A DNA stretch of 57,671 nucleotides from a virus (IMGVR_UViG_3300037861_000188:1-57671), one strand, 5' to 3'. Positions 12,275-50,742 are shown, numbered from the stretch's first letter. Translations and numbers: made by a program. Notes: generated by a model from the sequence alone, not told the origin.

Positions 12275-12936
12275 GGGGTTTCTATTTCTTCGTTTAGGTA
12301 CTTTTCGAGTTGCTTGTTTAAAAAAGCATGGTGTTCATAGGATAATTTGACATCAGAATTAAATGTGAATGACATACCATAGGTATGTTGTATTTGAGGT
12401 ATTCTTATCATTGCGCCAGTCTGAACCTCAATCCTTTTCGGTAGCTTCTTAGCCCATTGGCCGTTAAGGTAGATTAACCATCGGCCAACGTATAAAGCAT
12501 TCTTTTCATTTTTGTATTTAAAAACAGTATCAGATATTTCGAATTTAATACCGCCCCAATCCTCAAACCTATCTCCATCCTTAATCTCACCGTACAATTC
12601 AAAAGCCTTAGCCTTTAGCTGGTTTACGTAGGATTCTTCTGTGGATGGTTTGAACCATTTCTTGTTAATCGACAATTCTACTAGCTTATTATCGACTATT
12701 CTAATGTTGATACTTGGTTCACCGGGCAAGTTGTTTAACACCTTGTAAATTTTCCTAGGCGATATCAATGATCCATCACCATCTACACAATCAACAAACT
12801 CCACCCCTTCCCAAATATCCTTTTTCTTATTGACCACCAAAAAGAAATTACTAAATTCCCCTGACTCATTGATAACATCAAATCCGTTCTGGTCACAAAA
12901 TGTTTTTAGTTTCTCGTACTCGCTATCGTTGCTCAT
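12271..12936 (-). CDS. Hypothetical protein
   Basis: 221-aa ORF; AACAGGAC immediately before ATG. Confidence 0.75.
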   Translation of the reverse strand: MSNDSEYEKLKTFCDQNGFDVINESGEFSNFFLVVNKKKDIWEGVEFVDCVDGDGSLISPRKIYKVLNNLPGEPSINIRIVDNKLVELSINKKWFKPSTEESYVNQLKAKAFELYGEIKDGDRFEDWGGIKFEISDTVFKYKNEKNALYVGRWLIYLNGQWAKKLPKRIEVQTGAMIRIPQIQHTYGMSFTFNSDVKLSYEHHAFLNKQLEKYLNEEIETP

Positions 12937-12985
12937 GTCCTGTTTTGGTTAAATTATACTTCTGTTTATTGACTTTTAAAAGGTT

Positions 12986-13019
12986 AAAAAAACCCATCCT
13001 CCAATGAAGGATAGGTTTT
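12986..13019 (-). terminator. Intrinsic terminator
   Basis: Minus strand AAAACCTATCCTTC-ATT-GGAGGATGGGTTTTTTT (G.U pairs fit this strand). Confidence 0.7.
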
Positions 13020-13022
13020 GGA

Positions 13023-13136
13023 TTAGTACATCTTACCCTTGCCTCCCTTCTTCATGGGCATTTTCATACCTGAGCTCTTGGATGGTGTTTTTGTGGCCTT
13101 TGATGCTGAAGGCATAGACTTCTTTGAACATTTCAT
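13023..13136 (-). CDS. Lys/Met-rich basic peptide (37 aa)
   Basis: MKCSKKSMPSASKATKTPSKSSGMKMPMKKGGKGKMY; A-rich start; followed by a terminator. Confidence 0.65.
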   Translation of the reverse strand: MKCSKKSMPSASKATKTPSKSSGMKMPMKKGGKGKMY

Positions 13137-13733: not shown

Positions 13734-13855
13734 ATAAACAAATTTTCGTCCGTGTCTGAATCTTTCTGATTCTCACGGATGGTTTTAGGTGGATGAATAG
13801 TCAATGCCTCCAAAAGGAGTAAACAGGCTCGGAGGATTAACAGGATGCGGATCAT
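13730..13855 (-). CDS. Small hypothetical protein (41 aa)
   Basis: MIRILLILRACLLLLEAL...; ATGA overlaps at both ends. Confidence 0.45.
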   Translation of the reverse strand: MIRILLILRACLLLLEALTIHPPKTIRENQKDSDTDENLFI

Positions 13856-14316
13856 AGCAGTATGGATTCTAGGTTTCTGCATATCTCCTTGATCACCTTT
13901 ACAGTAATGGTATTCCCTGCTTGCTTATAACCCTGCGTGTCTGATACTTTTGAGATATCGAAGCTGTCTGGGAAGCCTTGTAAACGGAAGCACTCACGGG
14001 GAGTAAGTCTGCGGATGCGTTTTTCTGTCCTTAGTAGATTGTTTTGCTCAAATGAATTGGACGTTATAGGTGGGCAAATCGAGTGAGACCCTCCTTTATT
14101 GAATCCTCTGGCTCTTTGTTCTATTACTAAATTATCCTTCTGAACAGTCGTAATTGTACCACATATACCCTCTTCATACGCTTCAATAGTCTGTTCTCTA
14201 TACTCACCCGTTTTTCTGCTTTTCGGGTTTTCGGGATTTCGGCCTACCATTCGAACTGGAATCGGATCTTCCTGATCCTCTAGGGTTGGTCCATTGCTCT
14301 GATCGAAATCCGTCAT
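13852..14316 (-). CDS. C5-cytosine DNA methyltransferase, C-terminal portion only
   Basis: Motifs IX/X: RRLTPRECFRLQGFPDSF and YKQAGNTITV; no FxGxG or PCQ motifs. Confidence 0.8.
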   Translation of the reverse strand: MTDFDQSNGPTLEDQEDPIPVRMVGRNPENPKSRKTGEYREQTIEAYEEGICGTITTVQKDNLVIEQRARGFNKGGSHSICPPITSNSFEQNNLLRTEKRIRRLTPRECFRLQGFPDSFDISKVSDTQGYKQAGNTITVKVIKEICRNLESILL

Positions 14317-14714
14317 AATTTGTCCTGTTCGTTTGTTGTTGAAAATTGTTTGCTCGAAAAAATCTCTGTGATTCCGTCACATCCCCGGTTGAGCTGGAAT
14401 TGAACTGCTTCAATCTTGCCTTTCAAAACATCATCCACCATTACTAGAATCTGCTGCTGCTGAAGAGGTGTAAGCCTTCCCAATGGGGGCTTGGTATCAT
14501 CGTAGGCAAGGATTGTCTTCTGGTAGGCAAGCAGGTAGTTCTTTGAGTTCTGGTATCGCTCCTTACTCATCCGCATTGCCTTCCCGTGATAAATGGTGTC
14601 GGTAATCTCCAAAAGATCCAGTACCATCTTCCTAAAATTCCCCACTACATAGCCTGGATTATACCCTTCTTCTGTGCTGTGAAATCGTGTTTTATCCGGA
14701 TCGTAATCGCTCAT
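14313..14714 (-). CDS. Hypothetical protein
   Basis: 133-aa ORF, first gene of a leftward operon from the AT-rich divergent region. Confidence 0.65.
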   Translation of the reverse strand: MSDYDPDKTRFHSTEEGYNPGYVVGNFRKMVLDLLEITDTIYHGKAMRMSKERYQNSKNYLLAYQKTILAYDDTKPPLGRLTPLQQQQILVMVDDVLKGKIEAVQFQLNRGCDGITEIFSSKQFSTTNEQDKL

Positions 14715-14810
14715 TCATTTTTTCGTTTCACTAAAGTAATGAAAAAATAAATATTTGCTATAATTTGTAATTCTTTTTACGATTTATGTTTTTTTTGTTC
14801 GGCTAATTGC

Positions 14811-14818
14811 TACATTTG
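14811..14818 (+). promoter_or_regulatory. Bacteroidota -7 promoter box
   Basis: TACATTTG (TAnnTTTG) 5 nt before ATG 14824, implying a near-leaderless mRNA. Confidence 0.6.
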
Positions 14819-14823
14819 AAACT

Positions 14824-15417
14824 ATGAGCAGGACAAACCCATACGAAAAATACCTCACCAAAGAAGATATTATGCACGCTGAAATAGTGCGTGTTATAGA
14901 ACTCAGGTTTCCGGACCTGTTCTGGTGGCATACTCCCAACGAAGGCAAGCGAAGTGCATTTGAGCAGTACAAGTTCAAGACGCTCGGAGGTAAAAAAGGA
15001 GTTTCTGATTTCGTTATTCTCGAAGATTCAAATTTCTCCAAAGGATTGATGATGGAAATCAAATACGGAGGAAATGGCTGTTCAAAGGCTCAAGTGGATT
15101 TCCTGATTGACTCGATTAACAAAGGCTACACGAGTGCAGTGGTGTACAACCATGCTTCGGATGCAATTGCCCTGCTTGAAAGGCATATGGGTCCCGGTGC
15201 TTGTTTCCCCCTAGATGGAATTCTACTTATAAAGGAGGGGAAGGAGTCCATTATTCAGATTGAACAAGCGCATAAAGTGTTGATGAAAAAATCAACTCCT
15301 GTTTCAGACAAGCAGCAAGCTAAGAAGCTGTTTGAAGCTGAGGCAAAGAAGAAGTTTGGCAGTGTCTCGGTGCAGGTTAAAAAAGCCCTGTTTCAGGGAA
15401 AGGATATTAAAGTTTGA
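14824..15417 (+). CDS. VRR-NUC (PD-(D/E)XK) nuclease / resolvase
   Basis: WWHTPNEGKR, GGKKGVSDFVIL, LMMEIKYG, SKAQVDF. Confidence 0.85.
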   Translation: MSRTNPYEKYLTKEDIMHAEIVRVIELRFPDLFWWHTPNEGKRSAFEQYKFKTLGGKKGVSDFVILEDSNFSKGLMMEIKYGGNGCSKAQVDFLIDSINKGYTSAVVYNHASDAIALLERHMGPGACFPLDGILLIKEGKESIIQIEQAHKVLMKKSTPVSDKQQAKKLFEAEAKKKFGSVSVQVKKALFQGKDIKV

Positions 15418-15463: not shown

Positions 15464-15547
15464 TGATTTGAGGTTTGGTATTGCCTTTCAGTACCCGGTC
15501 TATGACCGATTGATTTTTATTTTACGAACAGGACAAACAACACTACA

Positions 15548-15835
15548 ATGAAAAAATCACTATCAATCGCACTTCTGCTTATCGGGCTATCCGCTTGCGC
15601 TGTGCTGGATCCCTCCAAGATGGATATCCCAAAGGAGCCTACGCTATGGGTCGTATCACAACTCGACTCCATCAATCACAAAAACGGGCAGGGATTTATC
15701 TTCTACAAACTTTCTCCGGTCAATGCTGGTGGCTTAAATGTCAAACCTGTCTGGATCATGGACTATTCCGGAGCCTTTCAGGTCGGTGATATTGTCAGCT
15801 TCCGCCTGTTTACCGATTACTCACAAGCGAGGTAG
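15548..15835 (+). CDS. Small lipoprotein
   Basis: Signal peptide with lipobox MKKSLSIALLLIGLSA-C. Confidence 0.7.
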   Translation: MKKSLSIALLLIGLSACAVLDPSKMDIPKEPTLWVVSQLDSINHKNGQGFIFYKLSPVNAGGLNVKPVWIMDYSGAFQVGDIVSFRLFTDYSQAR

Positions 15836-17399: not shown

Positions 17400-19457
17400 T
17401 TAATTCAACTGCAATCCCTGTGCTTTTCCTCCCGGCATACCCATCTGTTGCTGAAGGGCTGCCATCGCTTGAGGGTTGGCCTCGGTAGGCATTCCCTGTG
17501 CTGCTGCCATTTGCTGCGCCTGTTCCAATTCCTGCTGCTTGCGATTGATCGTCTCACTGAGCTTGTCTGCAAACGGCATAGAGGTCAATTCGGTGAATAT
17601 ACCTAAATCAATCAATCCCTGATCAAGAAACTTCAATAGCACATCATCCTGAATCTGTCTCATTACCGGAGTGTTGGTAGCCCGGCCCATGCTGATCATT
17701 ACATCCAGGTCACGGCCTTTCGCTGCTTCGTAATATTGTATATCATCGCTGTAGTCCTTACCTATGACCTGAATATTTCGATCATCGGTGTAAAACTGCT
17801 GAATAGTCTTTACTACTTTCAAGTCTCGCTTGCTTCTGCGCTGAAAGAAGAATTCAAAATACACTCGGTTGTTAATTTGGGCATTACTGGTCTGTAGCTG
17901 ATACATTCCCAATGGAGTACCCGAACTTGCTTTCTGTCCCTGTATCGCACTAGTGACCCCTGAAATCTGCTCCAATAGGCTCATTTGTGTCTGCAAGAGT
18001 TCAATTACCCCAATGTTTATGTTTTTGGCTGACATCTCCTCCGGCTTCAGTCCCCTTGGGTTTTTCTGAGCATTTGCACTGTATGGTACAACTCCGTCTG
18101 ACTTGCTTATTTCATTGGCATAATCATCATTGGTCCATCCGTCTGCCCGTGCTTCTTCAGGTAGCAACAAGGCCCCTTTAGAACTGGATCCGATAATCTT
18201 ATCCAAGGAAGTGAGCAATCGATTAATCTGAATTTGCTGATCAAGGATGTCATAGGCAAACCCCCAGATATTGCCATCCACCAAAGGATATAGCCCCAAC
18301 GTGTACGGACTCTGCTCATGCTCGTATGGTGTCTCTCCGTGCATCAGGATATCGCCATTGTCTGTCAAGAACCAGAAATGAAACACATCCTCGTATCTCA
18401 TTTCGTAATCCAAATAAGGAATGTTTTCTTCCGGTACCCCTTGCGCTGAAAATTGCTCGTATCGCTGATTGTTGATTTCTTCTAGTTCCTCTGCTTCCAT
18501 TTCGGATTGATAGGCTCTGCCTGACATGGGATCTGTTACAATCATCAAATACGTGCTAATCTCCTGCCATACCTCAATGACTCGGCACATATCATTGTCT
18601 CTGGGGACATAGAAGTCCACGTTGTCAATCATATCTGAATCCTGGCTCTGTGATTGATAGTGATTGCCTCTTTTACTTTGACTTGCCTTGCCGTACCATT
18701 GCTCAATAAGCTGCTTGTCGGCTTCATTTTTGGCAAAAGTTCCAACAACCTTGCTCAGAGGCACATCGTGAATCTCTCCTATGAAATTCAGTTCCTTCAA
18801 TCGTACATCTTTAAGACCTGTATTAAAAAACATCAATGCAGGATGCACGGAATCTATGATTAAATCGTCCCTGTTTTTATCCTTATGGTAGCCATAGTGG
18901 GTTTTCCAGCCAAAGGCACCTGAAATAAAGAACTCTTCAATCACGCTCACGTCAAGCATGTGTGTGTCGTTGAGCTGAAGTGCTGCCTCTAGCGTCTTGG
19001 ACATCATTTCTGATATCTTCTGATCTTCCCTGTTCCGTGCTACTACAATGGATTTAAAATCATTCTCAATGAACTGGCCTAACAGGTTCTTAATATGCTG
19101 CCGAATCATGTTCTGTTTGATTGGAATCATGTTCTGCTTGCGGATATAGGCATCCATGGTGATAGTCCCACCCGTGTCAGGATCTATCATGGTGTCATTC
19201 CAGTGATCGCCAATGTAAAAGTCACGGCACTTTTTACGCCTGTCTCTGAACGGCCTGAGCTTATCATAATATAATCGGGCTTGTTCCAGAACATCATCTG
19301 CCCTGCGCTTCATTTCAGGCTCATTATAGATCAGGGTGGTTGAATTCTTGATCTGATCCTGCGATAAACGCTTTTCCATGTACTGCGAAAAATCAATGTC
19401 CTTAGACTTGTTTCTCAGCAATTCATCGGGGTTAAAATCAACGTTGGTTTTTTTCAT
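17400..19457 (-). CDS. Portal protein (P22 gp1-like)
   Basis: DFYIGDHW, NMIRQHIKNLLG, DILDQQIQINR, LEQISGVTSAIQG, Q-rich C-terminal barrel. Confidence 0.9.
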   Translation of the reverse strand: MKKTNVDFNPDELLRNKSKDIDFSQYMEKRLSQDQIKNSTTLIYNEPEMKRRADDVLEQARLYYDKLRPFRDRRKKCRDFYIGDHWNDTMIDPDTGGTITMDAYIRKQNMIPIKQNMIRQHIKNLLGQFIENDFKSIVVARNREDQKISEMMSKTLEAALQLNDTHMLDVSVIEEFFISGAFGWKTHYGYHKDKNRDDLIIDSVHPALMFFNTGLKDVRLKELNFIGEIHDVPLSKVVGTFAKNEADKQLIEQWYGKASQSKRGNHYQSQSQDSDMIDNVDFYVPRDNDMCRVIEVWQEISTYLMIVTDPMSGRAYQSEMEAEELEEINNQRYEQFSAQGVPEENIPYLDYEMRYEDVFHFWFLTDNGDILMHGETPYEHEQSPYTLGLYPLVDGNIWGFAYDILDQQIQINRLLTSLDKIIGSSSKGALLLPEEARADGWTNDDYANEISKSDGVVPYSANAQKNPRGLKPEEMSAKNINIGVIELLQTQMSLLEQISGVTSAIQGQKASSGTPLGMYQLQTSNAQINNRVYFEFFFQRRSKRDLKVVKTIQQFYTDDRNIQVIGKDYSDDIQYYEAAKGRDLDVMISMGRATNTPVMRQIQDDVLLKFLDQGLIDLGIFTELTSMPFADKLSETINRKQQELEQAQQMAAAQGMPTEANPQAMAALQQQMGMPGGKAQGLQLN

Positions 19458-28500: not shown

Positions 28501-31500
28501 AACCTGCTTCAAGGTGATAGGCACTGTATTTAAGTGCTGCTGCTGAAATCTCTGAATCAAGACCAATGTAAAGTTTCCCTCCCTTGCCTTTGAAGAAGTC
28601 TTGAAGCTTTTTCTTTGCATCCTCTACTTCTTTTTCAGTTACAAGCTTATTGGACTTTCCGTAATTGGAAGGTCTTTCAATTGGTTTTCTTGGGGCTTTT
28701 GGAGGTGCCTGATTGGATTTTTTAAAATTTATGGCATCTTCTTTAAATTTAATGAAATCTTCTGCCGTCTGAAATGATTTGGGTAATACTATGTCAGGGT
28801 TGTCAGAATAAACTACTTTAGTCTCTATGCCTATGTTTGTTTCTTGCCTAAACTTATACTCTGTTCCAATTTCAGTCTCCTTTTTGGAAATAAGTTTTAC
28901 ATTTGAAGCATACGGCAATTTGCCTGTTTTATTTGGTTTGGCAGGTTCCTGTACTGGTGGTTCATTTGGTTGGGGTTGGTTTTTCCTATTTGATATAATT
29001 AAATCAATAGCGGTAATAGCGTCTTTTAGTTCTTCAAACACTCCTTGATCTTCTTCCTTGTATTTACCCAAATCAGATTCAAGTTCTTTTTTAACTTTTT
29101 CTAGTTTTTCAGTAGAATCTTCTTTTTTAACTCCTATTAGGAAAGGATTATCATTTAAAATAGATTCTATTGGATCGGACTTTTCAACATTCAGAAAATC
29201 ACCTGTCTTTTTCTGTACTTCATTTGCAAAATCAATAGCTTCTTTTTCACTATTGAAATAAACAAACCCGTTTTTATCAACATTTTCATTGTTGATTAGA
29301 TTTTGCCCTACATTTACTTTGTGTGTCGGGAATCTTACCTGAACCGCTCCATCAGCTCCTTGACCAACGGGTTTTTCTGGTACATTTTTAGGAGTAGGCT
29401 GTTGCGCTGATCCAGTGACAGGCTTGGCTGGTTGTAGTGGCGCATCTGGGGATTGAGGTGTAATCGCTCCGGTAGCTGGTTCATTCTGGCTGTTTTCAAA
29501 TCTATCTAGTCTTGACTCAATTTGGTTGCCTATTCTCTGAGGCATTCCAGTAGGGAATTTAAGAACTTCATCTAATATACTCTGAATCTCTTCACTTCCA
29601 TTGTAATCTTGGCCTATAACCTCCCTGATCTCACTAATCATCCGATTATAAGTCTCAGTACCGATTAAGTTTTTAATGTCTACTAGGTTTTTTTCAGCTA
29701 ACTCTTTAGCATATCTGTTTCGGATCTCTGTTATCTTTTTGTCTGCTTTTGAGAAAACTCCTGATATTCCTTTTAGTAAATAATCTGTACTTAAAATTGT
29801 GCCTATTCCTCCGGTCAATAAGTAGTCTGCCGCAATAGTATTATCAACGGTGCTTTCCTGAGCTCCGGTAGGTGGGTTATTCTGGATTACTTCTTCTTTG
29901 TTCCCTTCTTGGGTACGCAATTCGGCACCTTCCTGCCCCCTTTGTCCTTCATCCCTATTGCCTGGTAGCCCTTCCAGCACGGGTCTTTCTTCGCTGATTT
30001 TTTCATCTTGTTGTGGTTTAGGTGTTATATCCTCTTTCGGAGTAAACATACCCCGAAGCTTTTCTGCTCCTTCATTAGCCTGTGGTGCTGCCTCGGCTTG
30101 CTGTGGCTGTCTGAACTGTTGGAAGTCTGCAACGGGAATCGTTTCAAAAATAGTCCCGTCCTCATTCTCCAACTGAACGATTCCTTCCTCTAGGTTTACG
30201 CTTGAAACTGAAAACTCTTGACCATCTATGGGGATTTTCTCCCCTATCTGAATAGGGTTTGCAGGATCGAATACCTGAGTTTGTTCTGGAACAGGGCCGA
30301 AAGTCTCGATAAACTGATCAAATGGCATTGTCTCCTGCTCGGAAAGTCCTAGGCTTGATACCACTTTCTTTTCCTCTCCGGGCTTCTGTATGACTGCGTT
30401 TCCGTCAGGGAACATTGCTGTGACAAATACCTTTTCTCCGTTGAATTGAGCTGCTGAGATCATTTGAACTCCGTCCTGACCTTGGAAGGTCATCGCCTGA
30501 TATTCACCTCTGATCGTGTCGCTCTCCTGATTGGCTGATTGTGTCGCTGCTTCGTTGGCTCTATTCTCCTGAAGTGCTTGTCCCTGATACTTGCCTTTCA
30601 AAAGCTCTGTAAATGTTTCAGGCTTGATTTGGAAAACCCTATTAATGTCATTTTCTGAGACGGTTGTCGTTGTCCCGTTTGCCCGAATAGCATTATAGAA
30701 CATTTCTTGCCCGATTGTTCCTTCAACAGATCCGGAAGGTGTTGCCTGTTGTCCTGTTTTAGGTTTTGATTTTGCGGGGCCAACGATTTCTACTGCCCCG
30801 CTGTTGTCTGCCATCTCCGCAAATACAAGAGTTTCTGCAGCACTTCTTCGCTGTTGGTTTTCAATTCTGTTTGCAGCGAAAGAAACAGGACCAATCGCAA
30901 CTCCCATTACTCCTCCCAATACAAAAGCTTCTCCTGATTCTTTCAGGATTTCAATCGGCTTTTTCCAATCCTTTCTTTCCTGAAACAAGTAATTCGAAAA
31001 TTCCTGTCCAAAAGTGGTTGCTCCTTCGGTAGATCCTTCAATGACAAATCCCCTCCCTGCTGATTTCAGCACTCCCTCAACCAATGTGGCTCTGGATTGA
31101 CTTGAATTGGCAAAATCTGTAATTAGGTCTTTGGCTGTTTTTTCAACTACGGGACCAGCACCCATGACGTCTATTACTGATTTAGAAAGTTTCGCCTGTA
31201 CTGACGCTGGTATGAATTTGGATAATGCAAATCTTTCCATTCCAAATTCAAGACTTCCATACAATGCGCCCATTCCAAGTCTTGCGAGTGGGTCAGACTC
31301 TTGGCCCTTATCTTTCTTGTACTCGTCATAAGTTTCAATTCCAGAACCGAACGATACGGCTGATAATCCTACAACATTTGCCAAGCCTATTGCCCCTGCT
31401 ACCGGTGCGGATATAGGCTTTGTCACTACTGCTGCCAAAATACCTGCTGTATAGGGGACAACGGATCCTATTTTATATCCCCAAGATTCTGTGTCTCTGG

Positions 31501-35304: not shown

Positions 35305-35339
35305 TTGTCCTGTTATTACTTTTTTCGTAAGCCAAGTTA

Positions 35340-37471: not shown

Positions 37472-37780
37472 CTAGTTATTAACCGCCAAATTCCTAAGCA
37501 AATCATCTTCATCTTCAATTTCGTTAAGAGCTTCAAGAAAACAGGAAAGAAACACTTTTCCCGATAAGCTGCGCTGTATTCTTAATTCTGTTACAACAAA
37601 AATACAGGTACTTTGAATATACTCCCTCACATATTCTTCGATTGCATCTTCTGGGTCAATAAAATCGGTCAAAAAGACCTGATCTCCGAAAAGTGGTCTG
37701 AAATTCATAAGTGTATCAAAATAATGAGCCTCTATTTCTCCTTCTGGTGTAATCGTTTCGATTTCAAATTGTACTTTCAT
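37472..37780 (-). CDS. Acidic hypothetical protein
   Basis: 102 aa, D/E-rich; AACAGGACA directly before ATG. Confidence 0.7.
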   Translation of the reverse strand: MKVQFEIETITPEGEIEAHYFDTLMNFRPLFGDQVFLTDFIDPEDAIEEYVREYIQSTCIFVVTELRIQRSLSGKVFLSCFLEALNEIEDEDDLLRNLAVNN

Positions 37781-37826
37781 TGTCCTGTTTTTTAGTGGTT
37801 AGCAAAAGGGCCGAAGACCTGTTGAT

Positions 37827-38851: not shown

Positions 38852-38980
38852 GTTGTAAATATAATAACTCTTTTCGTAAAAAAAATTACATTTTGCTTTG
38901 ATCTTATTATTACTTGTAGTAATATTACTCAACGAACAGGACAAACCGAGGAATAGCGGACAAACTAAACGATAAGGATT

Positions 38981-39379: not shown

Positions 39380-39424
39380 TCATTCACGGGGGAGCAATCC
39401 CCCACTAACCAAACAGGACAAAAC

Positions 39425-39520
39425 ATGAAAAATTCATCATTTGTGGCTCTAATGGCAGTCACCACATTAATCATCGGGTTCGGGATTTATTTCGTCTCCC
39501 AAAACAACTTTATCTACTAA
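39425..39520 (+). CDS. Single-TM peptide (31 aa)
   Basis: MKNSSFVALMAVTTLIIGFGIYFVSQNNFIY; AACAGGACAA 3 nt upstream. Confidence 0.55.
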   Translation: MKNSSFVALMAVTTLIIGFGIYFVSQNNFIY

Positions 39521-40876: not shown

Positions 40877-41665
40877 ATGAAAAAGCAAGAACTGATTACT
40901 CGATTAATTGAAAAAGGAACTAAAAGCACTAATTTGAAAACAGCTTCAAACGCTGAGGAGAAAAGAGCTATTGAATCCCATGGGTTTGAAAAGGTCAAAG
41001 GTTGGCTAAGTCTGATCGAAAGAAAAGAATCAAACGCAAGGATGGCTATTGAATATGCCAAAAAAGCAAAGTCTTTCGGACTGTCATCAAGGAAGGAATA
41101 TTTGGCATTGTCAGAAAAAGCGAGTGATATACTTTCGGATTTTCAAACAGGACATTCTATGGGTTGTTATAGAACACTATTGTTGAATAACACCGCTTTT
41201 CAATGGAACCACAACCTCGATAATTATGCTAAATCTTACAAATTTAGTGCAACTTATGGCAGCTTGAAAATCTCCCTGAATAAAAAAGAGCTGAGACAAG
41301 TAAAGAACATTCAAGGTGTTTGGACAATTGAAAGTGAAGATGGGTCTGCTAAATGGCTTGAGTCTAGCGGAAGAAAATCAACGTTCTCCGTTGAATGGGT
41401 TGAAGGATATCTTTTCAAAGATTCTCACAGTAATGAAAGTCTCGATGCAGCAAAAGCACTACAAGAGCTTAAAGATATTCAAAAAGCTGCTCAAAAATCG
41501 AGAGATGGCCAGTTTGTAGGGGCTGTTCACATGAGGGCGAAAGGGGCGTGTATGCCAGGTATAATAGCTTTCTGCAATCGCCATGGATTAAACGTGAACC
41601 GTGGGTATAGTGTAGGGTTCTTAAAGTCTTTCAACGATCTTTATTCAGTACCTTTCCTGAAATAA
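40877..41665 (+). CDS. Hypothetical protein
   Basis: 262 aa; C-terminal GACMPGIIAFCNRHGL motif. Confidence 0.75.
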   Translation: MKKQELITRLIEKGTKSTNLKTASNAEEKRAIESHGFEKVKGWLSLIERKESNARMAIEYAKKAKSFGLSSRKEYLALSEKASDILSDFQTGHSMGCYRTLLLNNTAFQWNHNLDNYAKSYKFSATYGSLKISLNKKELRQVKNIQGVWTIESEDGSAKWLESSGRKSTFSVEWVEGYLFKDSHSNESLDAAKALQELKDIQKAAQKSRDGQFVGAVHMRAKGACMPGIIAFCNRHGLNVNRGYSVGFLKSFNDLYSVPFLK

Positions 41666-43665: not shown

Positions 43666-43933
43666 CGGAAGGCTCCTTTCCTAATTCGTTTAACAATCCT
43701 TTTGCATATAGGATTGCTATCCTAGCCACCGATTCTGTATATTTAATTGGATCGTTAGCATCTGGGGAAATGATATCAATTGCTTTAGTTATATCTTCCA
43801 TCATGCCCATATTGGAAATAATACCCTGCAATGCTATGCCTGAGAAATGCTCCAGCTTGTTTAAGCCATCGGTTATTGATTCGATGTTAGGGCTTTTAAT
43901 GACCTGCCCGATAGGTTCTGTGTAATTTTTCAT
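43658..43933 (-). CDS. Hypothetical protein
   Basis: GLNKLEHFSGIALQGII...AILYAKGLLNEL, a common small phage protein pattern. Confidence 0.7.
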   Translation of the reverse strand: MKNYTEPIGQVIKSPNIESITDGLNKLEHFSGIALQGIISNMGMMEDITKAIDIISPDANDPIKYTESVARIAILYAKGLLNELGKEPSDV

Positions 43934-43966
43934 CTTAGTTTTTATTTGCCCTGTTCAATTATTTGT

Positions 43967-44838: not shown

Positions 44839-45700
44839 CGTTCCAAGATTTATTGTTGAGAAATGTGGCTGGGTCTTTCCTGAATTGCTTCTCAGGCTGT
44901 GACTGGATGTAGTACGGAATGAATTCGATAGCAGCTTCTTTTTCCGCTTGCTTCAAGGCTTCCCATTTTTTTTTGATCTTGGCTTGATCCCCTCTTTTCT
45001 TGTCGTAGGTTTCCCAGAAATCTTCAAAAGTAGGCCAAGTCATTAATATTTGATTTTCATCTACTATTTGAGTAGTTGCCGTTTCCCTTTTGGGTAAGAT
45101 TTTTTCTTTTATGAGGCTTGATTGATCAACCAATTCAGGTGTTTTTATTTGGTTGCTGGCACAAGAAAATTCCGAAGGATTTTCGTCTTTTTTTGATATA
45201 GTATTATCTAGTATAGTATAGTCTAGTATAGTATGTTCCTTTTCTCCGCCTTCACTCCGGAACGTTCCGCCTTCACTCCGCCTTATTGGGTCAATACTCC
45301 GCCTTTTTGCATCAATACTCCGGAGTATTTCATCATAATTGACACAAGGGTTACTTCTCTTACGATAGGCATCTTGTATGTTTTCGATGAACTTTTGACA
45401 CCAAATTAATTGATAGTTATCCCAAAGTTTACGGTCAAACTCCCCTAAATTGACTAAATCCTGAATGATTTTAAGCAGCTTTTCTTCACTTACCTTGCAC
45501 TTGGCAGAAAGGAACATTACTTCCATTTTGTCGCCTAAATCCAAATAGTGATAATTGGTAACAGCAAGCTGTCGCAAGATCTTAAACCACGTTGCAAACC
45601 CATCATTTCCATAGGTATTTTCCATGTAAAACATGGCCTTTCCCTCCTTGCATAAGAAGGGAAAGTAATCAACTGTATTTTTCTCTTTGTGATTTGCCAT
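44741..45700 (-). CDS. Replication initiator (DUF4373/Lin1244-like N-terminus)
   Basis: VDYFPF..YGNDGFATWFKIL N-domain; FEDFWETYDKK..KDPATFLNNKSWND C-domain; internal iterons. Confidence 0.8.
   Translation of the reverse strand: MANHKEKNTVDYFPFLCKEGKAMFYMENTYGNDGFATWFKILRQLAVTNYHYLDLGDKMEVMFLSAKCKVSEEKLLKIIQDLVNLGEFDRKLWDNYQLIWCQKFIENIQDAYRKRSNPCVNYDEILRSIDAKRRSIDPIRRSEGGTFRSEGGEKEHTILDYTILDNTISKKDENPSEFSCASNQIKTPELVDQSSLIKEKILPKRETATTQIVDENQILMTWPTFEDFWETYDKKRGDQAKIKKKWEALKQAEKEAAIEFIPYYIQSQPEKQFRKDPATFLNNKSWNDELITSNQPKQIKPSSAAGSISKLYQRISASS
45198..45329. repeat. Iterons / putative replication origin
   Basis: ACTCCG at 45254, 45275, 45296 and 45317 (exact 21-bp period), palindrome AATACTCCGGAGTATT, adjacent TAGTA repeats. 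Confidence 0.75.
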
Positions 45701-45715: not shown

Positions 45716-46186
45716 TTAAAATGGTAGCGTGTCCTCATAGTTGTCAGGACCATCCATAGGTGGACTGCTCTGAGGGGACTGATTAATACTGGCGTGCGTT
45801 GTGCTGTTATCGCCTTTGCTTTGGTAGGATTGTCTGCTGTCCTCGGTTTGGTCGCTCTGTTTGCTTCCCAGCATAGTGAAGGAGGTGACCCGGATCTTTA
45901 CCCTGCTGAACTTATGCCCGTCCTTTTCCCATTTTTCAGTTTTGATCTTTCCTTCTACATAGAGTTGGCTTCCTTTCTTGAGGTACTGCAATGCGATTCG
46001 TGCTTGCTGTCCCCATATCTCCAGGTCATGCCACTCGGTATTCTCAACCTTGTTGCCTTGCTTGTCTTTATAGGACTCGGTAGTAGCTAATGTGATGTTG
46101 GCTACTACATTATCTCCTTCAAATTGCTTGAGCTCCGGGTCTTTGCCCAAATTGCCTAATAGGATTACCTTATTTACTGCTGCCAT
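45716..46186 (-). CDS. ssb: Single-stranded DNA-binding protein
   Basis: VNKVILLGNLGKDPE, TEWH, LKKGSQLYVEGKI, acidic tail EDTLPF; alternative in-frame ATG at 46294. Confidence 0.95.
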   Translation of the reverse strand: MAAVNKVILLGNLGKDPELKQFEGDNVVANITLATTESYKDKQGNKVENTEWHDLEIWGQQARIALQYLKKGSQLYVEGKIKTEKWEKDGHKFSRVKIRVTSFTMLGSKQSDQTEDSRQSYQSKGDNSTTHASINQSPQSSPPMDGPDNYEDTLPF

Positions 46187-46334
46187 ATTATTTTTTAGTC
46201 TTTGATTTTCTGGTTTTATTTCGATTCTTGTTTGCGCCAATGCCCGTGCCTCAATGGTCATGGTTTCTGTTGTTTCTAATGCGTGATGCAGCATTGCCCT
46301 GTTTTTGTTTAAGTGTGAAATATTAATTTTGATT

Positions 46335-46961: not shown

Positions 46962-47686
46962 AAGAATGGTGTTTTGTTAAGTTGAATTTCTGTTCCCGGA
47001 CTTGCGATGGCTACGGTTTTGCCCGTTGCTGCCAAGGTTCGTTGCAGGAATGATTCTGGATCCGCATTTCCGCTGCTTAGGTGAATGAGAATGATATTGT
47101 TTACCTCCGATAAATCATTTGCTTTCAGGAAGTCTAGCGTGGTCTGAAGGCTCATGTGGCTCTTCATGGTCCGTGCCCGTACTACTGCGTTCAAGCTGCC
47201 GTCCAGGAATCGCTTGGTCATTATTTCCTCGCAATAGTTTGCCTCGATGATGATATTGTTCATTCCTTTGAAAGTGTATGGGCAATAATGCGTATCGGTG
47301 ATGAAGCAGGTCTTTCCGCTTTCGGGATGGTCCAGTAGAAAACCAAACGTGGGCACATCGTGGATCACTGAAAATGGCTTAATCTTCCATGGACCAATAG
47401 TCAACTGCTTGCCGGACTCCATCTGGATAAATCGATGCCCTTCTAGCCCGTTGGTTGCATCTGTGTACACGTCAATCCCTGCTTTCATGTAATCGCTGGC
47501 GTACTTGATATGATCCCCGTGCCTGTGGCTGATAAGGCACCCTTGGACTCCGGATAAATCGAAGTCCAAGGCTTTCTTAACTTCCTTGAGTCGGACTCCT
47601 GCTTCCAGGATCAGGCAGTTCCCTCCGCTGTCCTGAAGGAGATAGCCATTTCCTGCACTCGATGAGCCAAGGACGATCAGTCTCAT
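46958..47686 (-). CDS. MBL-fold metallo-hydrolase (exonuclease partner of RecT)
   Basis: LGSSSAGN, SHRHGDH, HDV, ITDT, IEANY, IHLS. Confidence 0.9.
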   Translation of the reverse strand: MRLIVLGSSSAGNGYLLQDSGGNCLILEAGVRLKEVKKALDFDLSGVQGCLISHRHGDHIKYASDYMKAGIDVYTDATNGLEGHRFIQMESGKQLTIGPWKIKPFSVIHDVPTFGFLLDHPESGKTCFITDTHYCPYTFKGMNNIIIEANYCEEIMTKRFLDGSLNAVVRARTMKSHMSLQTTLDFLKANDLSEVNNIILIHLSSGNADPESFLQRTLAATGKTVAIASPGTEIQLNKTPFL

Positions 47687-48585
47687 GCGAATGATGGAGA
47701 TTCTGCCTGTACTGCTTCTGCTGCCACTGCTTTTGGTTCTGCAGTTGGCTTTGACGAAATTTCCTCGTGTTCATCAAAATCCATGGACACTGAATTCGCT
47801 TTATACTTTGCCTCGGAATTCTGCCCGGCCTTTGCTGTAGTTTCAGAATCATCATTATCATCATCAAACAGGTGCGCATCGTCACTGGTACTGGCTGCGT
47901 GTTTCAGGGCACGGTTTCGGACGGTCTTACATGCCATTTCATCAGGAAATTTGGTGTGAGCTGGCGTTAAACCATTTCCTTTTCGCTGGTTCCATGCGGC
48001 ATGAATTTGAGGCTTGGTCATGATGGTGAGTTCTCTTCTTCCGTCATTGTAATCAACAGTGCAATAAGCCCCTTTAATTTTGGTGCCGTCACCGATGGAC
48101 TCCAAAGTCTGCTTGTGCTGCGTGATTCGCTTATTCCCAGTCTCGGCATCTACTTCAAAGGAGAATTCATCCCCTTCATAGATTGCGCTGGCTGATACGT
48201 TTTTCACCCCCCCGGCACGCTTTGCAATCAGTTCCTTACCATGGTAGCTGATTGAACATTCCAGTTTCCCACCGTATGCGATGAAGTAACACTGGTCTTT
48301 GATCACCGACAAACCATTGGTAAGCATTTTCAACAATGCCTGTCCTACAGATGCTGGCGTACATACCGTCAATACAGGATGACTATCCTTATCAACTGCC
48401 TCCGATAAATAAAGCCATGCAGAATTTAGGGCATTTACCGGGCTGTAGTTCTTTGGAAATTGACCTTCCCCTCCCTCTTGTGTTTGCTTGATGATGGAAA
48501 GGACTTTTTCCTTTACCTTCTCTTGCCTTACCGCTAATTCCTTTTTAGCGTCTTTTACTGGTGCTTGATTGTTGTCCTGTGACAT
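47683..48585 (-). CDS. recT: RecT-family single-strand annealing recombinase
   Basis: QCYFIAYG, IYEGDEF, IKGAY, FPDEMACKTVRNRALK. Confidence 0.9.
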   Translation of the reverse strand: MSQDNNQAPVKDAKKELAVRQEKVKEKVLSIIKQTQEGGEGQFPKNYSPVNALNSAWLYLSEAVDKDSHPVLTVCTPASVGQALLKMLTNGLSVIKDQCYFIAYGGKLECSISYHGKELIAKRAGGVKNVSASAIYEGDEFSFEVDAETGNKRITQHKQTLESIGDGTKIKGAYCTVDYNDGRRELTIMTKPQIHAAWNQRKGNGLTPAHTKFPDEMACKTVRNRALKHAASTSDDAHLFDDDNDDSETTAKAGQNSEAKYKANSVSMDFDEHEEISSKPTAEPKAVAAEAVQAESPSFA

Positions 48586-48623
48586 TTTTGTTTTTGATTA
48601 TATAAAGTGAATGATTGATTTGT

Positions 48624-50669
48624 CTACTGCCAATGTAGGGTTAGCTTCTCTTGGGAAGGGTCCACCACTAGGTTGATCAGTTGGCTCTTTGTTTCGGGAA
48701 TCCACGTTACAGACTCTCGGTTGTCGATGAAAATCGGGAGATACAGCTTGTAATGATCCGATAAGGTGTTGATGATGTCAAGCCCTGCCTGAATCCTTCC
48801 TGCGTTGTTCAGGTCGCTGAATGGGACTCCCTTGAACAGGGTTTCACATACCTCTTTTTCAGCGCCGTTTAGCGGCATGTAGAAAAGCTTGAAGCTGACC
48901 AATGAGAACTTGGCGTTGATCTCTGACTCGATCATTTCAACCCTTGCTTTGGAATAAGTGAAGCAAGCATCCTCCATACCCTCCGCCTCGGAAATTTTCT
49001 GACCGATTATTTTTTCAGAATCTTTGAGTTCCTGAATCCGGATATCTATCTTTTCAATGGTTTCCTTGTTGCCAAGGGCCTTTTGAAGTCCTTCCAGGCT
49101 GGTTTGAATAGCAATCTTAGTTGTCTTCAATTCTGACGTGTTCACTTCCTGAGACTTAATAGGCTTGTTGGATTCCAGTTTTGCGATATCCTGAATTAGG
49201 AATGTTGCTGTTTGGGATTGAAAATCATCTACTGTCTTTTTATCCTGTGGATTGGCGTACCACTCCTTTAAGGAGGCTTCAAGCGTGATTAAATCTTCTT
49301 TTTTTACGGAAAGGAAAGCCTCGGAATCAGACTTGCTTTTTGAGGTAGCCCGGATTGCGTTATTTGAAGATTCAATATCCTTCTGGGAACCTTCAATCTG
49401 ATTTTTCAGCCTCATGCCCTTCTGGGTGATTTCAGCCTTTCGGTCTGTTTTATCTTTGTTGAACCGCCCTCTTGCTGCTTCCTCAGCATTGAATAACATA
49501 TCACCTTCCAATGGACGTTCGCAAGACGGGCAGGATGAACCGTTCCACATGAATTCCTTGGCGTTCTCTTTCTGCCATTCTGCTACAAGTGCCGCTTTCT
49601 CCGTTTCTTTGGAAGGAATTGATAATCCGGATGTTTCGATATCAGATTTATGTCGCTGTATCTGACCAACATAGGTCTTTATTGAGTTCTCAGCATTTAG
49701 CGCATACTCATTCAGCTCCTTGATTTTAGCCTGAATCTCCCTTGGAGACTTCTCGCTATCATTCTTCCACTTTTCAAAATCCTGCTGCGCTAGGAATTTA
49801 AGCTTCTGAAGCTTTGATTTTGCCTCATAGATTTTATTTTCCCACTCCTGAATAGATTTGTTGTAGACCGAATCTGAATTACTCAAAGTTCGAATCGATA
49901 ACTCTACCTCTTCGAGCTCATTTTTTTTGCCTGCAATGATTTCCTGAAGCTCGCTGAACTCATAAGCCTCTTCTGGCTTCGACCTTTCGGCCTCGCTAAT
50001 TTTTACGGGAATATCTGCTTTTTCCTCTTTGAGGTTCTTTTTTTCCATTGCGGCCTTCGCACGGATCTGATCGAGATTCCTACCTATGGTCAACAGTTCC
50101 TCCAACTCTTTAATGTGAGGGGACTTCTTTGACTTTGAAGTAAGTCCCTCAAAAATCTGTGCCGTGCTGATTTCCGATGCCATGGAAATAAGGGCTTCTC
50201 TTCGGTCTGCTGGCTTCATGGAGTTGAAGAATAGCGGATTGGTCAGGAGTTTGAAAAGCTCCTCTTTGAAAAACTCCTCTACCTGCTTGCGGTAGTTGGA
50301 TTCCAGTGTTACAGGGAATCCATCGATTTGATAAGCGGTAGTATGGCCTTTCAATACTCCCTCTTTGCTCCACAATTGCTTGTAGGTTCTTTGGAAGGTC
50401 TTAGACTCGCTATCAATCTGGAAGGCTGCAAAGACCTCATGGTCCACTTTCTCAATTGGATTGTTGTTAGCATCCAATGTCTTGATACCGAAGTCTGATC
50501 TTCCTAGACTGTCTTTTCCGAAGAAAAGGAACCAAACGCTGTCGAATACGGTGGTCTTACCGCTTGCGTTTTTGCCGTGAAGGAAGTTCTCACCTTCCTG
50601 AAAATCCATTTCTAAGGACTTAATGCCTTTGAAGTGGGATAGTTTTAACTTTTTGAGTTCTACTTTCAT
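48624..50669 (-). CDS. SMC/Rad50-like coiled-coil ATPase
   Basis: GKNASGKTT, CPSC hook, LNNAGRIQAGLDII, PIFIDNRES. Confidence 0.9.
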   Translation of the reverse strand: MKVELKKLKLSHFKGIKSLEMDFQEGENFLHGKNASGKTTVFDSVWFLFFGKDSLGRSDFGIKTLDANNNPIEKVDHEVFAAFQIDSESKTFQRTYKQLWSKEGVLKGHTTAYQIDGFPVTLESNYRKQVEEFFKEELFKLLTNPLFFNSMKPADRREALISMASEISTAQIFEGLTSKSKKSPHIKELEELLTIGRNLDQIRAKAAMEKKNLKEEKADIPVKISEAERSKPEEAYEFSELQEIIAGKKNELEEVELSIRTLSNSDSVYNKSIQEWENKIYEAKSKLQKLKFLAQQDFEKWKNDSEKSPREIQAKIKELNEYALNAENSIKTYVGQIQRHKSDIETSGLSIPSKETEKAALVAEWQKENAKEFMWNGSSCPSCERPLEGDMLFNAEEAARGRFNKDKTDRKAEITQKGMRLKNQIEGSQKDIESSNNAIRATSKSKSDSEAFLSVKKEDLITLEASLKEWYANPQDKKTVDDFQSQTATFLIQDIAKLESNKPIKSQEVNTSELKTTKIAIQTSLEGLQKALGNKETIEKIDIRIQELKDSEKIIGQKISEAEGMEDACFTYSKARVEMIESEINAKFSLVSFKLFYMPLNGAEKEVCETLFKGVPFSDLNNAGRIQAGLDIINTLSDHYKLYLPIFIDNRESVTWIPETKSQLINLVVDPSQEKLTLHWQ

Positions 50670-50742
50670 TGTCCTGTTCGTTTATTTAAATTGTCTGATT
50701 TCCTTTTTTACCTGCGATTGGCTTTTCTGCCGTTTCAGGTAG

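What the first reader, a model, noticed from the sequence alone, without database searches (positions are those of the whole stretch)
12936..50680. CGAACAGGACAA motif at start codons, always in mRNA sense, with variants that are G.U-compatible
Perfect matches: 12936-12944(-, 9 nt, abuts ATG); 14320-14331(-, 12 nt, Dcm fragment); 15525-15536(+, 12 nt, lipoprotein); 35305-35314(-, 10 nt, PAPS-reductase-like); 37779-37789(-, 11 nt); 38933-38944(+, 12 nt, first early gene leader); 39412-39421(+, 10 nt); 48572-48580(-, 9 nt, codons 2-5 of recT); 50668-50680(-, 13 nt, SMC ATPase). Variants: 14825-14836(+, UGAGCAGGACAA over the VRR-NUC AUG), 43946-43957(-, UGAACAGGGCAA) and 46293-46303(-, AACAGGGCAAU at an ATG in frame with ssb). 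Within the paired segments the substitutions are A>G or C>U, which keep pairing to UUGUCCUGUUCG by wobble. That is expected of an RNA-RNA target, not of a protein operator. Spacing to AUG varies (overlapping to 36 nt upstream), so it is not a Shine-Dalgarno. No structural or lysis gene start has it. A given 12-mer is expected far less than once in 115 kb of both strands, yet four perfect sense copies occur.
Basis: seen in the sequence. Interest (0 to 1): 0.9.

Follow-up and report, generated by a model that had tools for sequence, protein, structure and literature searches.

The report
Start-codon motif with antisense small RNA
A phage of Bacteroidota bacteria marks the start of about a dozen early and accessory genes with one short sequence, and carries a single reverse copy in what looks like a small RNA gene that could switch them all off together.

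Summary
CGAACAGGACAA occurs 5 times (0.01 expected). Its core ACAGGRCA occurs 17 times: 16 in mRNA sense, 11 of them within -45..+15 of a start codon (P about 7e-13). It marks 11 of 39 non-late genes and 0 of 26 late genes.

The motif is a lineage trait. Four related genomes have genome-specific versions at starts, sharing only the core CAGGA. It also marks gene-cassette junctions.

The closest known thing is the start-associated sequence (SAS) of Cluster K mycobacteriophages. Its function is still unknown, and it also has one reverse copy per genome.

The sRNA reading is plausible but unproven. The only antisense copy (51241-51252) lies in an intergenic unit with a Bacteroidota -7 box, three hairpins (z -5.35) and a terminator-like hairpin. 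The anti-motif core UGUCCU sits in an apical loop.

Against it:
- The G.U argument is not significant (3 of 5 changes, P 0.21).
- Relatives G003 and G004 keep the motif but have an integrase and repressor at that place.
- Neither covariation nor expression could be tested.

Earlier scan notes concern this same genome only.

The parts
12935..12946 (-). motif copy AAAACAGGACAT; its last A is the A of the ATG of gene 12271-12936 (221 aa, no family hit)
14320..14331 (-). perfect 12-mer, 3 nt before the ATG of 13852-14316 (C-terminal part of a C5 cytosine DNA methylase)
14825..14836 (+). variant TGAGCAGGACAA over codons 1-5 of the VRR-NUC-like gene 14824-15417. A TACATTTG -7 box ends 5 nt before the ATG, so the mRNA is probably leaderless. 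The motif is kept in G002 and lost in G004.
15525..15536 (+). perfect 12-mer, 11 nt before the ATG of the putative lipoprotein gene 15548-15835
35305..35316 (-). ATAACAGGACAA abutting the ATG of the PAPS-reductase-like accessory gene 34402-35304. Gene and motif are together absent from G001.
37780..37791 (-). AAAACAGGACAA overlapping the ATG of 37472-37780 (102 aa). It is the junction of a 411-nt deletion seen in G001 and in contigs of 3 of 4 runs.
38933..38944 (+). perfect 12-mer at the 5' end of the leader of the first plus-strand early gene (38981-39379), 36 nt before the ATG. It is followed by a leader hairpin conserved in G001, G002 and G003.
39410..39421 (+). CAAACAGGACAA, 3 nt before the ATG of a 31-aa ORF (39425-39520)
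43946..43957 (-). variant TGAACAGGGCAA, 12 nt before the ATG of 43658-43933 (G001 has GGACAA here)
46294..46305 (-). variant AAAACAGGGCAA overlapping the ATG of the ssb gene (45716-46294). The same start, carrying the G004-type motif, is present in G004.
48572..48583 (-). GTCACAGGACAA inside codons 1-5 of recT (47683-48585). The homology break with G001 lies at 48553.
50669..50680 (-). perfect 12-mer overlapping the ATG of the SMC/SbcC-like ATPase gene (48624-50669). G001 has an extra 264-nt gene inserted here, flanked by two motif copies.
51241..51252 (-). anti-motif: the minus strand reads TTGTCCTGTTCG, the only antisense copy. UGUCCU forms the apical loop of the middle hairpin.
51195..51295 (-). 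candidate sRNA unit: a TATATTTG -7 box (51288-51295), three hairpins (51283-51200) and a terminator-like hairpin (51229-51206) with a U-rich tail. It lies between the last late gene (stop at 51315) and the early promoter region.
30749..30760 (-). sense copy AAAACAGGACAA inside the 4240-aa gene, not at a start
41144..41155 (+). sense copy CAAACAGGACAT inside gene 40877-41665, followed 4 nt later by an out-of-frame ATG (41158) that opens 30 aa or more

Best explanation
The motif is a start-associated sequence. It is an RNA-level element built into the translation initiation region of early, DNA-metabolism and accessory genes of a Bacteroidota phage lineage.

In this phage and its near-twin G001, the factor that reads it is most likely an RNA of about 85-90 nt made from the minus strand at about 51283-51195. 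This RNA could come from its own -7 box, or it could be the 3' end of the late lysis operon, which runs into it with no earlier terminator. Its middle hairpin shows UGUCCU in the loop. That loop can pair with AGGACA at the starts and extend to 9-13 bp. This would cover positions -12 to +1 of the mRNAs and block 30S binding, shutting down a dozen early or accessory genes together once late transcription is on.

The shared motif also serves as microhomology at which gene cassettes are gained and lost.

Shown here: the motif, its position and strand, its class of genes, its conservation across relatives, the antisense copy, the predicted fold, and the junctions.

Inferred: transcription of the unit, pairing in vivo, and the repressive direction of the effect.
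For: - Statistics of the motif.
- Independent replication in G002 with the same 8-mer: 5 of 7 hits precede an ORF start, background 0.10.
- Position varies from -42 to +9 but stays inside a ribosome footprint in 12 of 13 sites. It lies downstream of the ATG in two genes. That fits occlusion of a binding site better than ribosome positioning.
- There is a single perfect reverse copy. A given 12-mer is expected about 0.003 times per strand of 57.7 kb (my arithmetic).
- That copy sits in an intergenic unit with TATATTTG. 7 of 57 such boxes are intergenic against about 3 expected, and two others mark expected promoters.
- Fold z is -5.35 for the 84-nt unit and -4.30 for 116 nt. There is a terminator-like hairpin, and the anti-motif core is in a 6-nt apical loop.
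- Duplex energies are -12.6 to -20.9 kcal/mol against 4.6 to open the hairpin.
- No RNA-binding family was found in the 40 phage proteins scanned against Pfam.
- Parallel in the closest known system: Cluster K phages have one reverse SAS copy not at a gene start (passages of PMC3203893). In Anaya and 6 relatives it lies in an apical loop of a conserved intergenic hairpin on the transcribed strand.
Against: - No expression data. No RNA run was on record for this stretch, so nothing was learnt either way.
- The unit was found only in G000 and G001, which are identical across the 84 nt. The whole 50900-51700 stretch is equally conserved (about 1% diverged), so there is no specific conservation signal.
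- G003 (complete) and G004 carry the motif family at 10 of 22 and 9 of 14 hits. They have an integrase and a repressor at the syntenic place and no clear anti-motif. The motif therefore does not need this RNA.
- Two motif genes lie inside the late packaging operon, which sits oddly with a late-acting repressor of early genes.
- The reverse copy could be an orphaned start motif left by a rearrangement, since the motif is a recombination hotspot.
- The wobble argument is not significant.
- The terminator's U tract is imperfect.
Confidence: 0.4

Rival explanations
1. The motif is a start-associated translation element read by a protein or by the ribosome itself. Candidates are a phage- or host-encoded translational activator or repressor, or an endoribonuclease, in the manner of T4 RegA/RegB or a CsrA-type GGA binder (those names are recalled, not tested). 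On this view the single reverse copy is incidental.
For: - The core CAGGA is conserved across genomes that lack the sRNA unit.
- The motif changes as a block between genomes (GGACAA, GGAAAA, TCAGGAAT), as expected if a genome-specific reader co-evolves with it.
- It hugs the ATG even where the intergenic gap is 35-234 nt long.
- Most phage proteins have no known function, so a reader could be hidden among them.
Against: - No RNA-binding family was found in the 40 proteins scanned against Pfam.
- Canonical SD pairing is limited to AGGA and the spacing is too short (GGA at -5).
- Bacteroidia ribosomes are reported to be SD-blind (abstract).
- A Bacteroidota 16S rRNA has no GTCCTG (this is not the true host).
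- The 11-mer ACAGGACAATG is at near-control frequency in 151 Bacteroidota genomes: 92 of 151 have any copy, mostly 0-7 each. It is therefore not a general host signal.
- This view leaves the perfect antisense copy in a structured unit unexplained.
Confidence: 0.3
2. The motif is a DNA-level asymmetric operator of the stoperator type. A monomeric phage repressor binds the many co-oriented sites and blocks transcription initiation and elongation. Genome-specific variants would then be immunity specificities.
For: - It is asymmetric, present in many copies, and co-oriented with transcription.
- Two copies lie right at promoters (14825 and 38933).
- The variants differ between the temperate relatives G003 and G004, whose repressors are only 37.6% identical.
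- The features of stoperators are taken from passages of PMC9283540.
Against: - The complete genome G000 has no homologue of that repressor and no integrase, yet it keeps 5 perfect copies.
- 0 of 26 late genes have a site.
- Sites hug the ATG rather than lying anywhere in the gaps.
- In G003 the repressor gene itself has the motif in sense before its ATG.
Confidence: 0.12
3. The motif has no regulatory role of its own. It is a boundary sequence that travels with mobile gene cassettes and persists because recombination at it shuffles genes.
For: - G000 versus G001: an extra gene flanked by two motif copies (50666-50684), a precise 411-nt deletion between two similar start regions (37801/38194), and breaks at 35334, 39378 and 48553, each within 35 nt of a site.
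- The same joints and loose ends appear in contigs of other runs: 37787 to 38199 in 3 of 4 runs, 38928 to 39378 in 2 of 4 runs, and loose ends at 50666 and 50684 in one run (X3).
Against: - Core genes that do not move (ssb, recT, SMC ATPase) carry it at orthologous starts in G004.
- The exact distance to the ATG and the strand are kept.
- Recombination use and a regulatory role do not exclude each other.
Confidence: 0.1

Closest known systems
Start-associated sequences (SAS) of Cluster K mycobacteriophages (Pope et al. 2011, PMC3203893; passages read)
   Same: - A short asymmetric repeat with about a dozen or more copies per genome.
- Restricted to the non-structural part of the genome.
- A few nt upstream of start codons, mostly ATG.
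- One orientation, plus a single reverse copy that is not at a gene start.
- Contains an AGGA-type core, but conservation extends beyond anything 16S rRNA could pair with.
- Rare in host genomes.
- Function unknown. The authors left open an RNA or protein reader. Papers from 2024 and 2025 still call the role undefined (passages).
   Different: - The sequence is unrelated: GGGATAGGAGCCC against (CG)AACAGGACAA.
- The host phylum is unrelated, and its ribosomes are reported to ignore SD sequences.
- No ESAS-like 17-bp inverted repeats were seen.
- The motif sits closer to the ATG, often overlapping it.
- The flanks differ between related genomes.
- The link to cassette junctions is documented here.
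Stoperators of Cluster A mycobacteriophages (passages of PMC9283540)
   Same: Asymmetric sites of about 13 bp, many per genome, in promoters and short intergenic gaps, with orientation tied to the direction of transcription.
   Different: - Stoperators are DNA sites of the immunity repressor. G000 has no such repressor.
- The sites here avoid late genes and are anchored to start codons.
Trans-acting sRNAs whose seed lies in a hairpin loop and pairs with the initiation regions of many mRNAs (general class; recalled, no call)
   Same: A short structured RNA with a terminator, a seed shown in a loop, and targets at -12..+1 of several mRNAs.
   Different: Here the targets share an identical, dedicated sequence tag, rather than the sRNA exploiting the ordinary SD. 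Nothing is known about expression. No Rfam family matches the window.
Boundary sequences and mobile regulatory cassettes of phage mosaicism (lambdoid boundary sequences, T4-type promoter/stem-loop cassettes; recalled, no call)
   Same: Short conserved sequences at gene borders that coincide with recombination junctions.
   Different: Those are promoter/terminator or intergenic elements. This one is a start-codon tag of 9-12 nt.

Membership tests
Start-associated sequences (SAS type) | Short asymmetric sequence repeated about ten times or more in one genome | tested here: met
   5 perfect 12-mers, 11 copies of the 9-mer, and 17 copies of the core ACAGGRCA
Start-associated sequences (SAS type) | Lies within a few nt upstream of start codons, mostly ATG | tested here: met
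   8 of 12 ACAGGACA hits are followed within 15 nt by an ATG-led ORF, against a background of 0.09. Offsets are -1 to 12. There are three exceptions: 36 nt upstream (38933) and two downstream of the ATG (14825, 48572).
Start-associated sequences (SAS type) | One orientation relative to transcription, with at most a rare reverse copy | tested here: met
   16 of 17 hits are in sense and 1 is reverse (51241)
Start-associated sequences (SAS type) | Confined to non-structural genes | tested here: met
   0 of 26 late genes against 11 of 39 others, P 0.002. The late class was assigned and from gene order.
Start-associated sequences (SAS type) | Sequence related to GGGATAGGAGCCC, i.e. homology with the Cluster K element | tested here: not met
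   The sequence, phage lineage and host phylum are all different. This is an analogue, not a homologue.
Start-associated sequences (SAS type) | Not a general signal of host genomes | tested here: inconclusive
   In 151 sampled Bacteroidota genomes the 11-mer occurs at a low frequency close to the control. The true host is unknown and was not searched.
Trans-acting base-pairing sRNA | Own transcription unit (promoter and terminator) or a processed 3' UTR | tested here: inconclusive
   There is a -7 box TATATTTG at the right distance and a terminator-like hairpin. These are consensus matches only.
Trans-acting base-pairing sRNA | Seed complementary to its targets and accessible | tested here: met
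   9-13 nt of perfect or wobble pairing at 12 starts. 6 of the 12 seed bases lie in an apical loop. This is a prediction only.
Trans-acting base-pairing sRNA | Seed and targets co-vary in relatives | not testable with these tools
   The unit was found only in G000 and G001, where it is identical.
Trans-acting base-pairing sRNA | The RNA is expressed | not testable with these tools
   No run on record as RNA holds the stretch
Stoperator / repressor operator | A cognate repressor is encoded by the phage | tested here: not met
   tblastn with the G003 and G004 repressors finds nothing in G000. Two small HTH proteins do exist.
Stoperator / repressor operator | Sites spread over the whole genome, including late operons | tested here: not met
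   0 of 26 late gene starts have a site
Shine-Dalgarno sequence | Pairs with the 3' tail of 16S rRNA at a spacing of about 5-9 nt from the start codon | tested here: not met
   Only AGGA can pair. GGA sits at -5 in 5 sites and the range is -42 to +9. The 16S tail was read in a Dysgonomonas genome. Bacteroidia ribosomes are reported to be SD-blind (abstract).
CsrA/Rsm-type GGA binding site | GGA shown in a hairpin loop, and a CsrA-family protein present | tested here: inconclusive
   GGA is invariant. No CsrA family was found in the 40 phage proteins scanned. The host was not examined, and the structure around the sites was not tested.

The most novel reading that the evidence does not exclude
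Start-associated sequences are the target tags of a phage 'anti-SAS' RNA. Each such phage carries one reverse copy of its tag in the apical loop of a structured non-coding RNA. That RNA pairs with every tagged start region and switches a whole class of early and accessory genes off (or on) together.

The same design would then have arisen independently in a Bacteroidota phage lineage (this window) and in Cluster K mycobacteriophages. In the latter, the lone reverse SAS sits in the loop of a conserved intergenic hairpin. That would answer what SAS are for.
Probability: 0.25. Interest if true: 0.85.

Novelty: new variant of a known kind. Interest (0 to 1): 0.72.

Why it matters
Start-associated sequences have been known in Cluster K mycobacteriophages since 2011 without a mechanism. 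Here an unrelated sequence with the same behaviour turns up in phages of a phylum whose ribosomes are reported to ignore Shine-Dalgarno sequences. The element therefore cannot simply be a strong ribosome-binding site.

The single antisense copy, shown in a hairpin loop of a compact RNA-like unit, and the matching arrangement I found in Anaya and six relatives, give a concrete and cheap hypothesis: mutate the loop, then mutate the tag to compensate. The mycobacteriophage side can be tested with existing tools in Mycobacterium smegmatis.

The link between the tag and cassette junctions also shows how a shared start tag lets newly acquired genes plug straight into the phage's expression programme.

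Tried and rejected
- **RNA evidence.** The look-up of sequencing runs listed no RNA holder, so nothing can be said about expression.
- **Population variation.** Read laying on four DNA runs gave joints and loose ends. Its list of variant letters was cut (1139 rows not shown), so variation inside the sRNA unit and the motif sites could not be read.
- **Covariation.**
  - IMG/VR and JGI scans with the alignment gave only G001, G004 and short pieces.
  - An 18-mer scan for the sRNA seed region found only G001.
  - A 16-mer scan for hairpin 1 gave 34 loci, all unrelated hairpins apart from G001.
  - A 14-mer scan for motif plus ATG gave 116 or more loci. None beyond G001 had a credible multi-copy start pattern.
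- **Rfam and tRNA.** No Rfam family matches the window and there is no tRNA or tmRNA.
- **Whole-sRNA duplex scoring.** Scoring the sRNA against all 65 start regions did not discriminate, because GC-rich terminator pairings dominate. I dropped it.
- **Conservation island.** There is none: 50900-51700 is uniformly about 1% diverged between G000 and G001.
- **Anti-motif in G003 and G004.** I found only a 7-nt UUUCCUG in the loop of one late-leader hairpin of G004, and a cis hairpin in its early leader. Both are within chance.
- **rRNA pairing outside the anti-SD.** No GTCCTG in one Bacteroidota 16S.
- **Control.** The reversed-pattern control is void for ACAGGACA, which reads the same backwards. 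The automatic ORF calls there miss several true starts, so one search replaces it.
- **Supplements.** Supplementary files of the papers were not opened. The SAS site tables of Pope et al. and the 2025 survey may hold details on the reverse copies.
- **Not in print, as far as searched.** Searches, and the passages read, gave no mention of an RNA at the reverse SAS copy. The library lacks many subscription papers.

Full report
**What the window is.** The window is a complete 57,671-bp virus record with direct terminal repeats.
- The large terminase has thousands of relatives. The few that carry names are from Bacteroidota (Algoriphagus sp., 'Bacteroidota bacterium').
- 27 of the 28 prophage-like matches in reference genomes carry Bacteroidota-type names. 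One is labelled Acutalibacteraceae.
- DNA runs that hold the sequence are labelled salt-lake metagenomes.
- Most genes have no Shine-Dalgarno sequence upstream (visible). TAnnTTTG boxes, the Bacteroidota -7 promoter element (named from memory), sit where promoters are expected.
- Gene content: tail genes, the portal, a 4240-aa protein, TerS and TerL, an endolysin, and a block for an SMC/SbcC-like ATPase, RecT, a metallo-beta-lactamase-fold protein, SSB, YopX and HTH proteins.

- CGAACAGGACAA occurs 5 times where 0.01 is expected. AACAGGACA occurs 11 times where 0.6 is expected.
- I curated a list of 65 genes. The core ACAGGRCA has 17 hits. 11 of them lie in the -45..+15 windows of gene starts, which make up 3.4% of strand positions (P 6.8e-13).
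- A test that does not use my gene list agrees. 8 of 12 ACAGGACA hits are followed within 15 nt by an ATG that opens at least 30 codons, against a background of 0.09. One of the 8 is a nested out-of-frame ATG at 41158.
- 16 of 17 hits are in mRNA sense. The exception is 51241-51252.
- None of 26 late genes (virion, lysis, packaging) has the motif, against 11 of 39 others (P 0.002). Two motif genes are accessory genes sitting inside the packaging operon.

**It is a lineage trait with genome-specific spelling.** I fetched four related records whole.

| Genome | TerL identity to the window | Motif at starts | Hits followed by an ORF start |
|---|---|---|---|
| G001 | 98% | same as the window | 6 of 9 |
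| G002 | 74% | (A/C)AACAGGACAA | 5 of 7 |
| G004 | 73% | (CG)AACAGGAAA(A) | 9 of 14 |
| G003 | 65% | AATCAATCAGGAA(TC) | 10 of 22 |

- G002 uses the same 8-mer as the window, so it is an independent replication.
- The 8-mers for G003 and G004 were chosen after I had looked at the sequences, so their P values are optimistic.
- Two short metagenome pieces with SMC-ATPase relatives (L183, L200) also show CAGGACAA just before start codons.
- Orthologous starts keep the tag in the local spelling. This holds for the SMC ATPase and ssb in G004.
- The only part shared by all is CAGGA, 1-6 nt before the ATG.

**It is not an ordinary ribosome-binding site.**
- GGA lies at -5 in five sites, at -6, -9 (twice), -17, -18 and -42 in others, and at +8 and +9 in two genes where the motif follows the ATG.
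- One of those two, the VRR-NUC-like gene, has a TACATTTG box ending 5 nt before the ATG. It is probably leaderless. G002 keeps that arrangement.
- Only AGGA could pair with the 16S tail, which I read in a Dysgonomonas genome.
- Bacteroidia ribosomes are described as blind to SD sequences (abstract of PMC13000453).
- That 16S gene contains no GTCCTG.
- In 151 sampled Bacteroidota genomes ACAGGACAATG occurs 0-7 times per genome, close to the control. One genome has 16 copies, and its control count is equally high (14). The phage has 3 copies in 57.7 kb.

**The antisense copy.**
- Read on the minus strand, 51252-51241 is TTGTCCTGTTCG. It lies in the 278-nt gap between the last late gene (stop at 51315) and the AT-rich region that holds the early promoter box TACATTTG at 51066.
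- A TATATTTG box lies at 51288-51295.
- The 84 nt downstream fold into three hairpins with z -5.35. None of 200 shuffles folded as well. The 116-nt version gives z -4.30.
  - Hairpin 1 is GUUAGC-GAAA-GCUAAC.
  - Hairpin 2 has the 6-nt apical loop UGUCCU, the complement of AGGACA.
  - Hairpin 3 is the terminator-like stem 51229-51206 with a U-rich tail.
- No terminator precedes the unit, so late-operon transcripts would carry it as well.
- Opening hairpin 2 costs 4.6 kcal/mol. Duplexes with the tags give -12.6 to -20.9.
They are all predictions.

**What weakens the sRNA idea.**
- The unit exists only in G000 and G001 among what I could reach. It is identical in both across the 84 nt, and so is the whole 50900-51700 stretch, give or take 1%.
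- G004 has an integrase and a 143-aa repressor-like gene exactly where G000 has the unit. G003 has the homologous pair (37.6% identical). G000 has neither.
- Neither G003 (rated complete) nor G004 has a convincing anti-motif.
In positions 3-12, 3 of 5 departures are wobble-compatible (P 0.21). Positions 1-2 are mostly incompatible.
- The tag therefore predates and outlives this RNA. If the RNA works, it is an add-on that exploits a shared tag.

**The tag marks recombination junctions.** Between G000 and G001:
- G001 has an extra 264-nt gene inserted at the start of the SMC-ATPase gene, with the tag on both sides.
- The N4-gp49-like gene 37827-38189 is precisely deleted between two similar start regions.
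- Three further homology breaks lie within 35 nt of a tag (35334, 39378, 48553).

Contigs from other runs show the same 37787-to-38199 joint in 3 of 4 runs, a 38928-to-39378 replacement in 2 of 4 runs, and loose ends at 50666 and 50684 in one run.

**Comparison with what is known.**
- The behaviour matches the start-associated sequences of Cluster K mycobacteriophages almost point for point. These are a 13-bp asymmetric repeat with 11-19 copies, confined to the non-structural half, 3-7 bp before mostly ATG starts, and absent from the host.
- The authors could not tell whether an RNA or a protein reads it (passages of PMC3203893). Papers of 2024 and 2025 still call the role undefined (passages).
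- Four K1 phages were reported to have one copy in the opposite orientation, not at a gene start.
- I located it in Anaya: 17 sites within 2 mismatches, 16 forward and 1 reverse, against 0.58 expected. The reverse copy lies in the 385-nt gap between genes 96 and 97.
- On the transcribed strand the anti-SAS lies in the loop of a GC hairpin. The single-sequence z is only -1.08.
- The region is present in 135 records.
- In an alignment of 7 phages at 75-100% identity, the CCTCCT loop core is invariant. The consensus fold puts it in an apical loop. 5 of 51 predicted pairs show double changes that keep the pair.
- I found no mention of this in the passages I read or in three searches.
- This parallel is suggestive, not proof. 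It is what lifts the sRNA reading above the protein reading.

**The stoperator rival.** Stoperators are asymmetric repressor sites co-oriented with transcription (passages of PMC9283540). This rival fits the block-wise change of the tag between the temperate relatives. It fails on three points: the missing repressor in G000, the absence of sites from late genes, and the anchoring to start codons.

**Verdict.**
- The tag is real, non-random and of the SAS kind. It is new for this phylum and in sequence.
- I put 0.4 on the tag being targeted by the antisense RNA in this phage, 0.3 on a protein or ribosomal reader with an incidental reverse copy, 0.12 on a DNA operator, and 0.1 on a pure recombination boundary.

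Noticed in passing
L231:34835-34915 (Mycobacterium phage Anaya, record 59834-59914) and alignment A3: The single reverse-orientation SAS of Cluster K phages lies in a long intergenic gap. On the transcribed strand it forms the apical loop (CCUCCUAUCC) of a hairpin conserved in 7 aligned phages. Some compensatory pairs are present, and two further conserved hairpins flank it.
   Followed up: partly
window 51037-51314, compared with G004 59300-60771 and G003 1-1700: The temperate relatives carry a tyrosine-integrase-like gene and a 143-148-aa repressor-like gene where this phage has the sRNA-like unit. This phage has neither, so it looks like a lytic relative of temperate phages.
   Followed up: partly
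window 43284-43305 and 43666-43685; G002 46204-46225 and 43840-43860: A few early genes have a strong canonical Shine-Dalgarno (AAAGGAGG or GGAAAGGAG) at normal spacing. That is odd for phages of a phylum whose ribosomes are reported not to use SD.
   Followed up: no
window 14715-14745, and the orthologous places in G002, G003 and G004: The leader of gene 14313-14714 (ttagtgNaacgaaaaNNtgaATG) is conserved in all four genomes, although the proteins are only 38-68% identical.
   Followed up: no
window 14811-14826: A TACATTTG box ends 5 nt before the ATG of the VRR-NUC-like gene, also in G002 and G004. The mRNA is probably leaderless or nearly so.
   Followed up: partly
window 38945-38980; G001 26979-27010; G003 18690-18727; G002 43180-43207: The leader of the first plus-strand early gene holds a small conserved hairpin followed by taaactaaac. 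In G003 it is flanked by two copies of that genome's tag.
   Followed up: no
G004 39950-39989 (minus strand): One GGCCATG...TGGCC late-leader or terminator hairpin has UUUCCUG in its loop, the complement of G004's own tag core. This is a 7-nt match, within chance, but in the right kind of place.
   Followed up: partly
G004 59300-59345 (minus strand): In the leader of the first early gene, the tag ACAGGAA is paired in cis with UUCCUGU 7 nt upstream. This 7-bp hairpin would hide the tag.
   Followed up: no
window 41144-41160: An interior sense copy of the tag is followed after 4 nt by an out-of-frame ATG that opens at least 30 codons inside gene 40877-41665. It could be a nested gene or chance.
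   Followed up: no
window 45010-45543: In run X7 the summed contig depth jumps to 282 (about 8 elsewhere), with loose ends made of TATAG-type tandem repeats at 45196-45237. This is probably a repeat shared with other DNA in that sample.
   Followed up: no
window 13852-14316: This ORF matches only the last 77 positions of the C5 cytosine methylase family (246-322 of 324). It is a separate tagged gene in G002 and G003 too, so it is a conserved stand-alone fragment rather than a fresh break.
   Followed up: no
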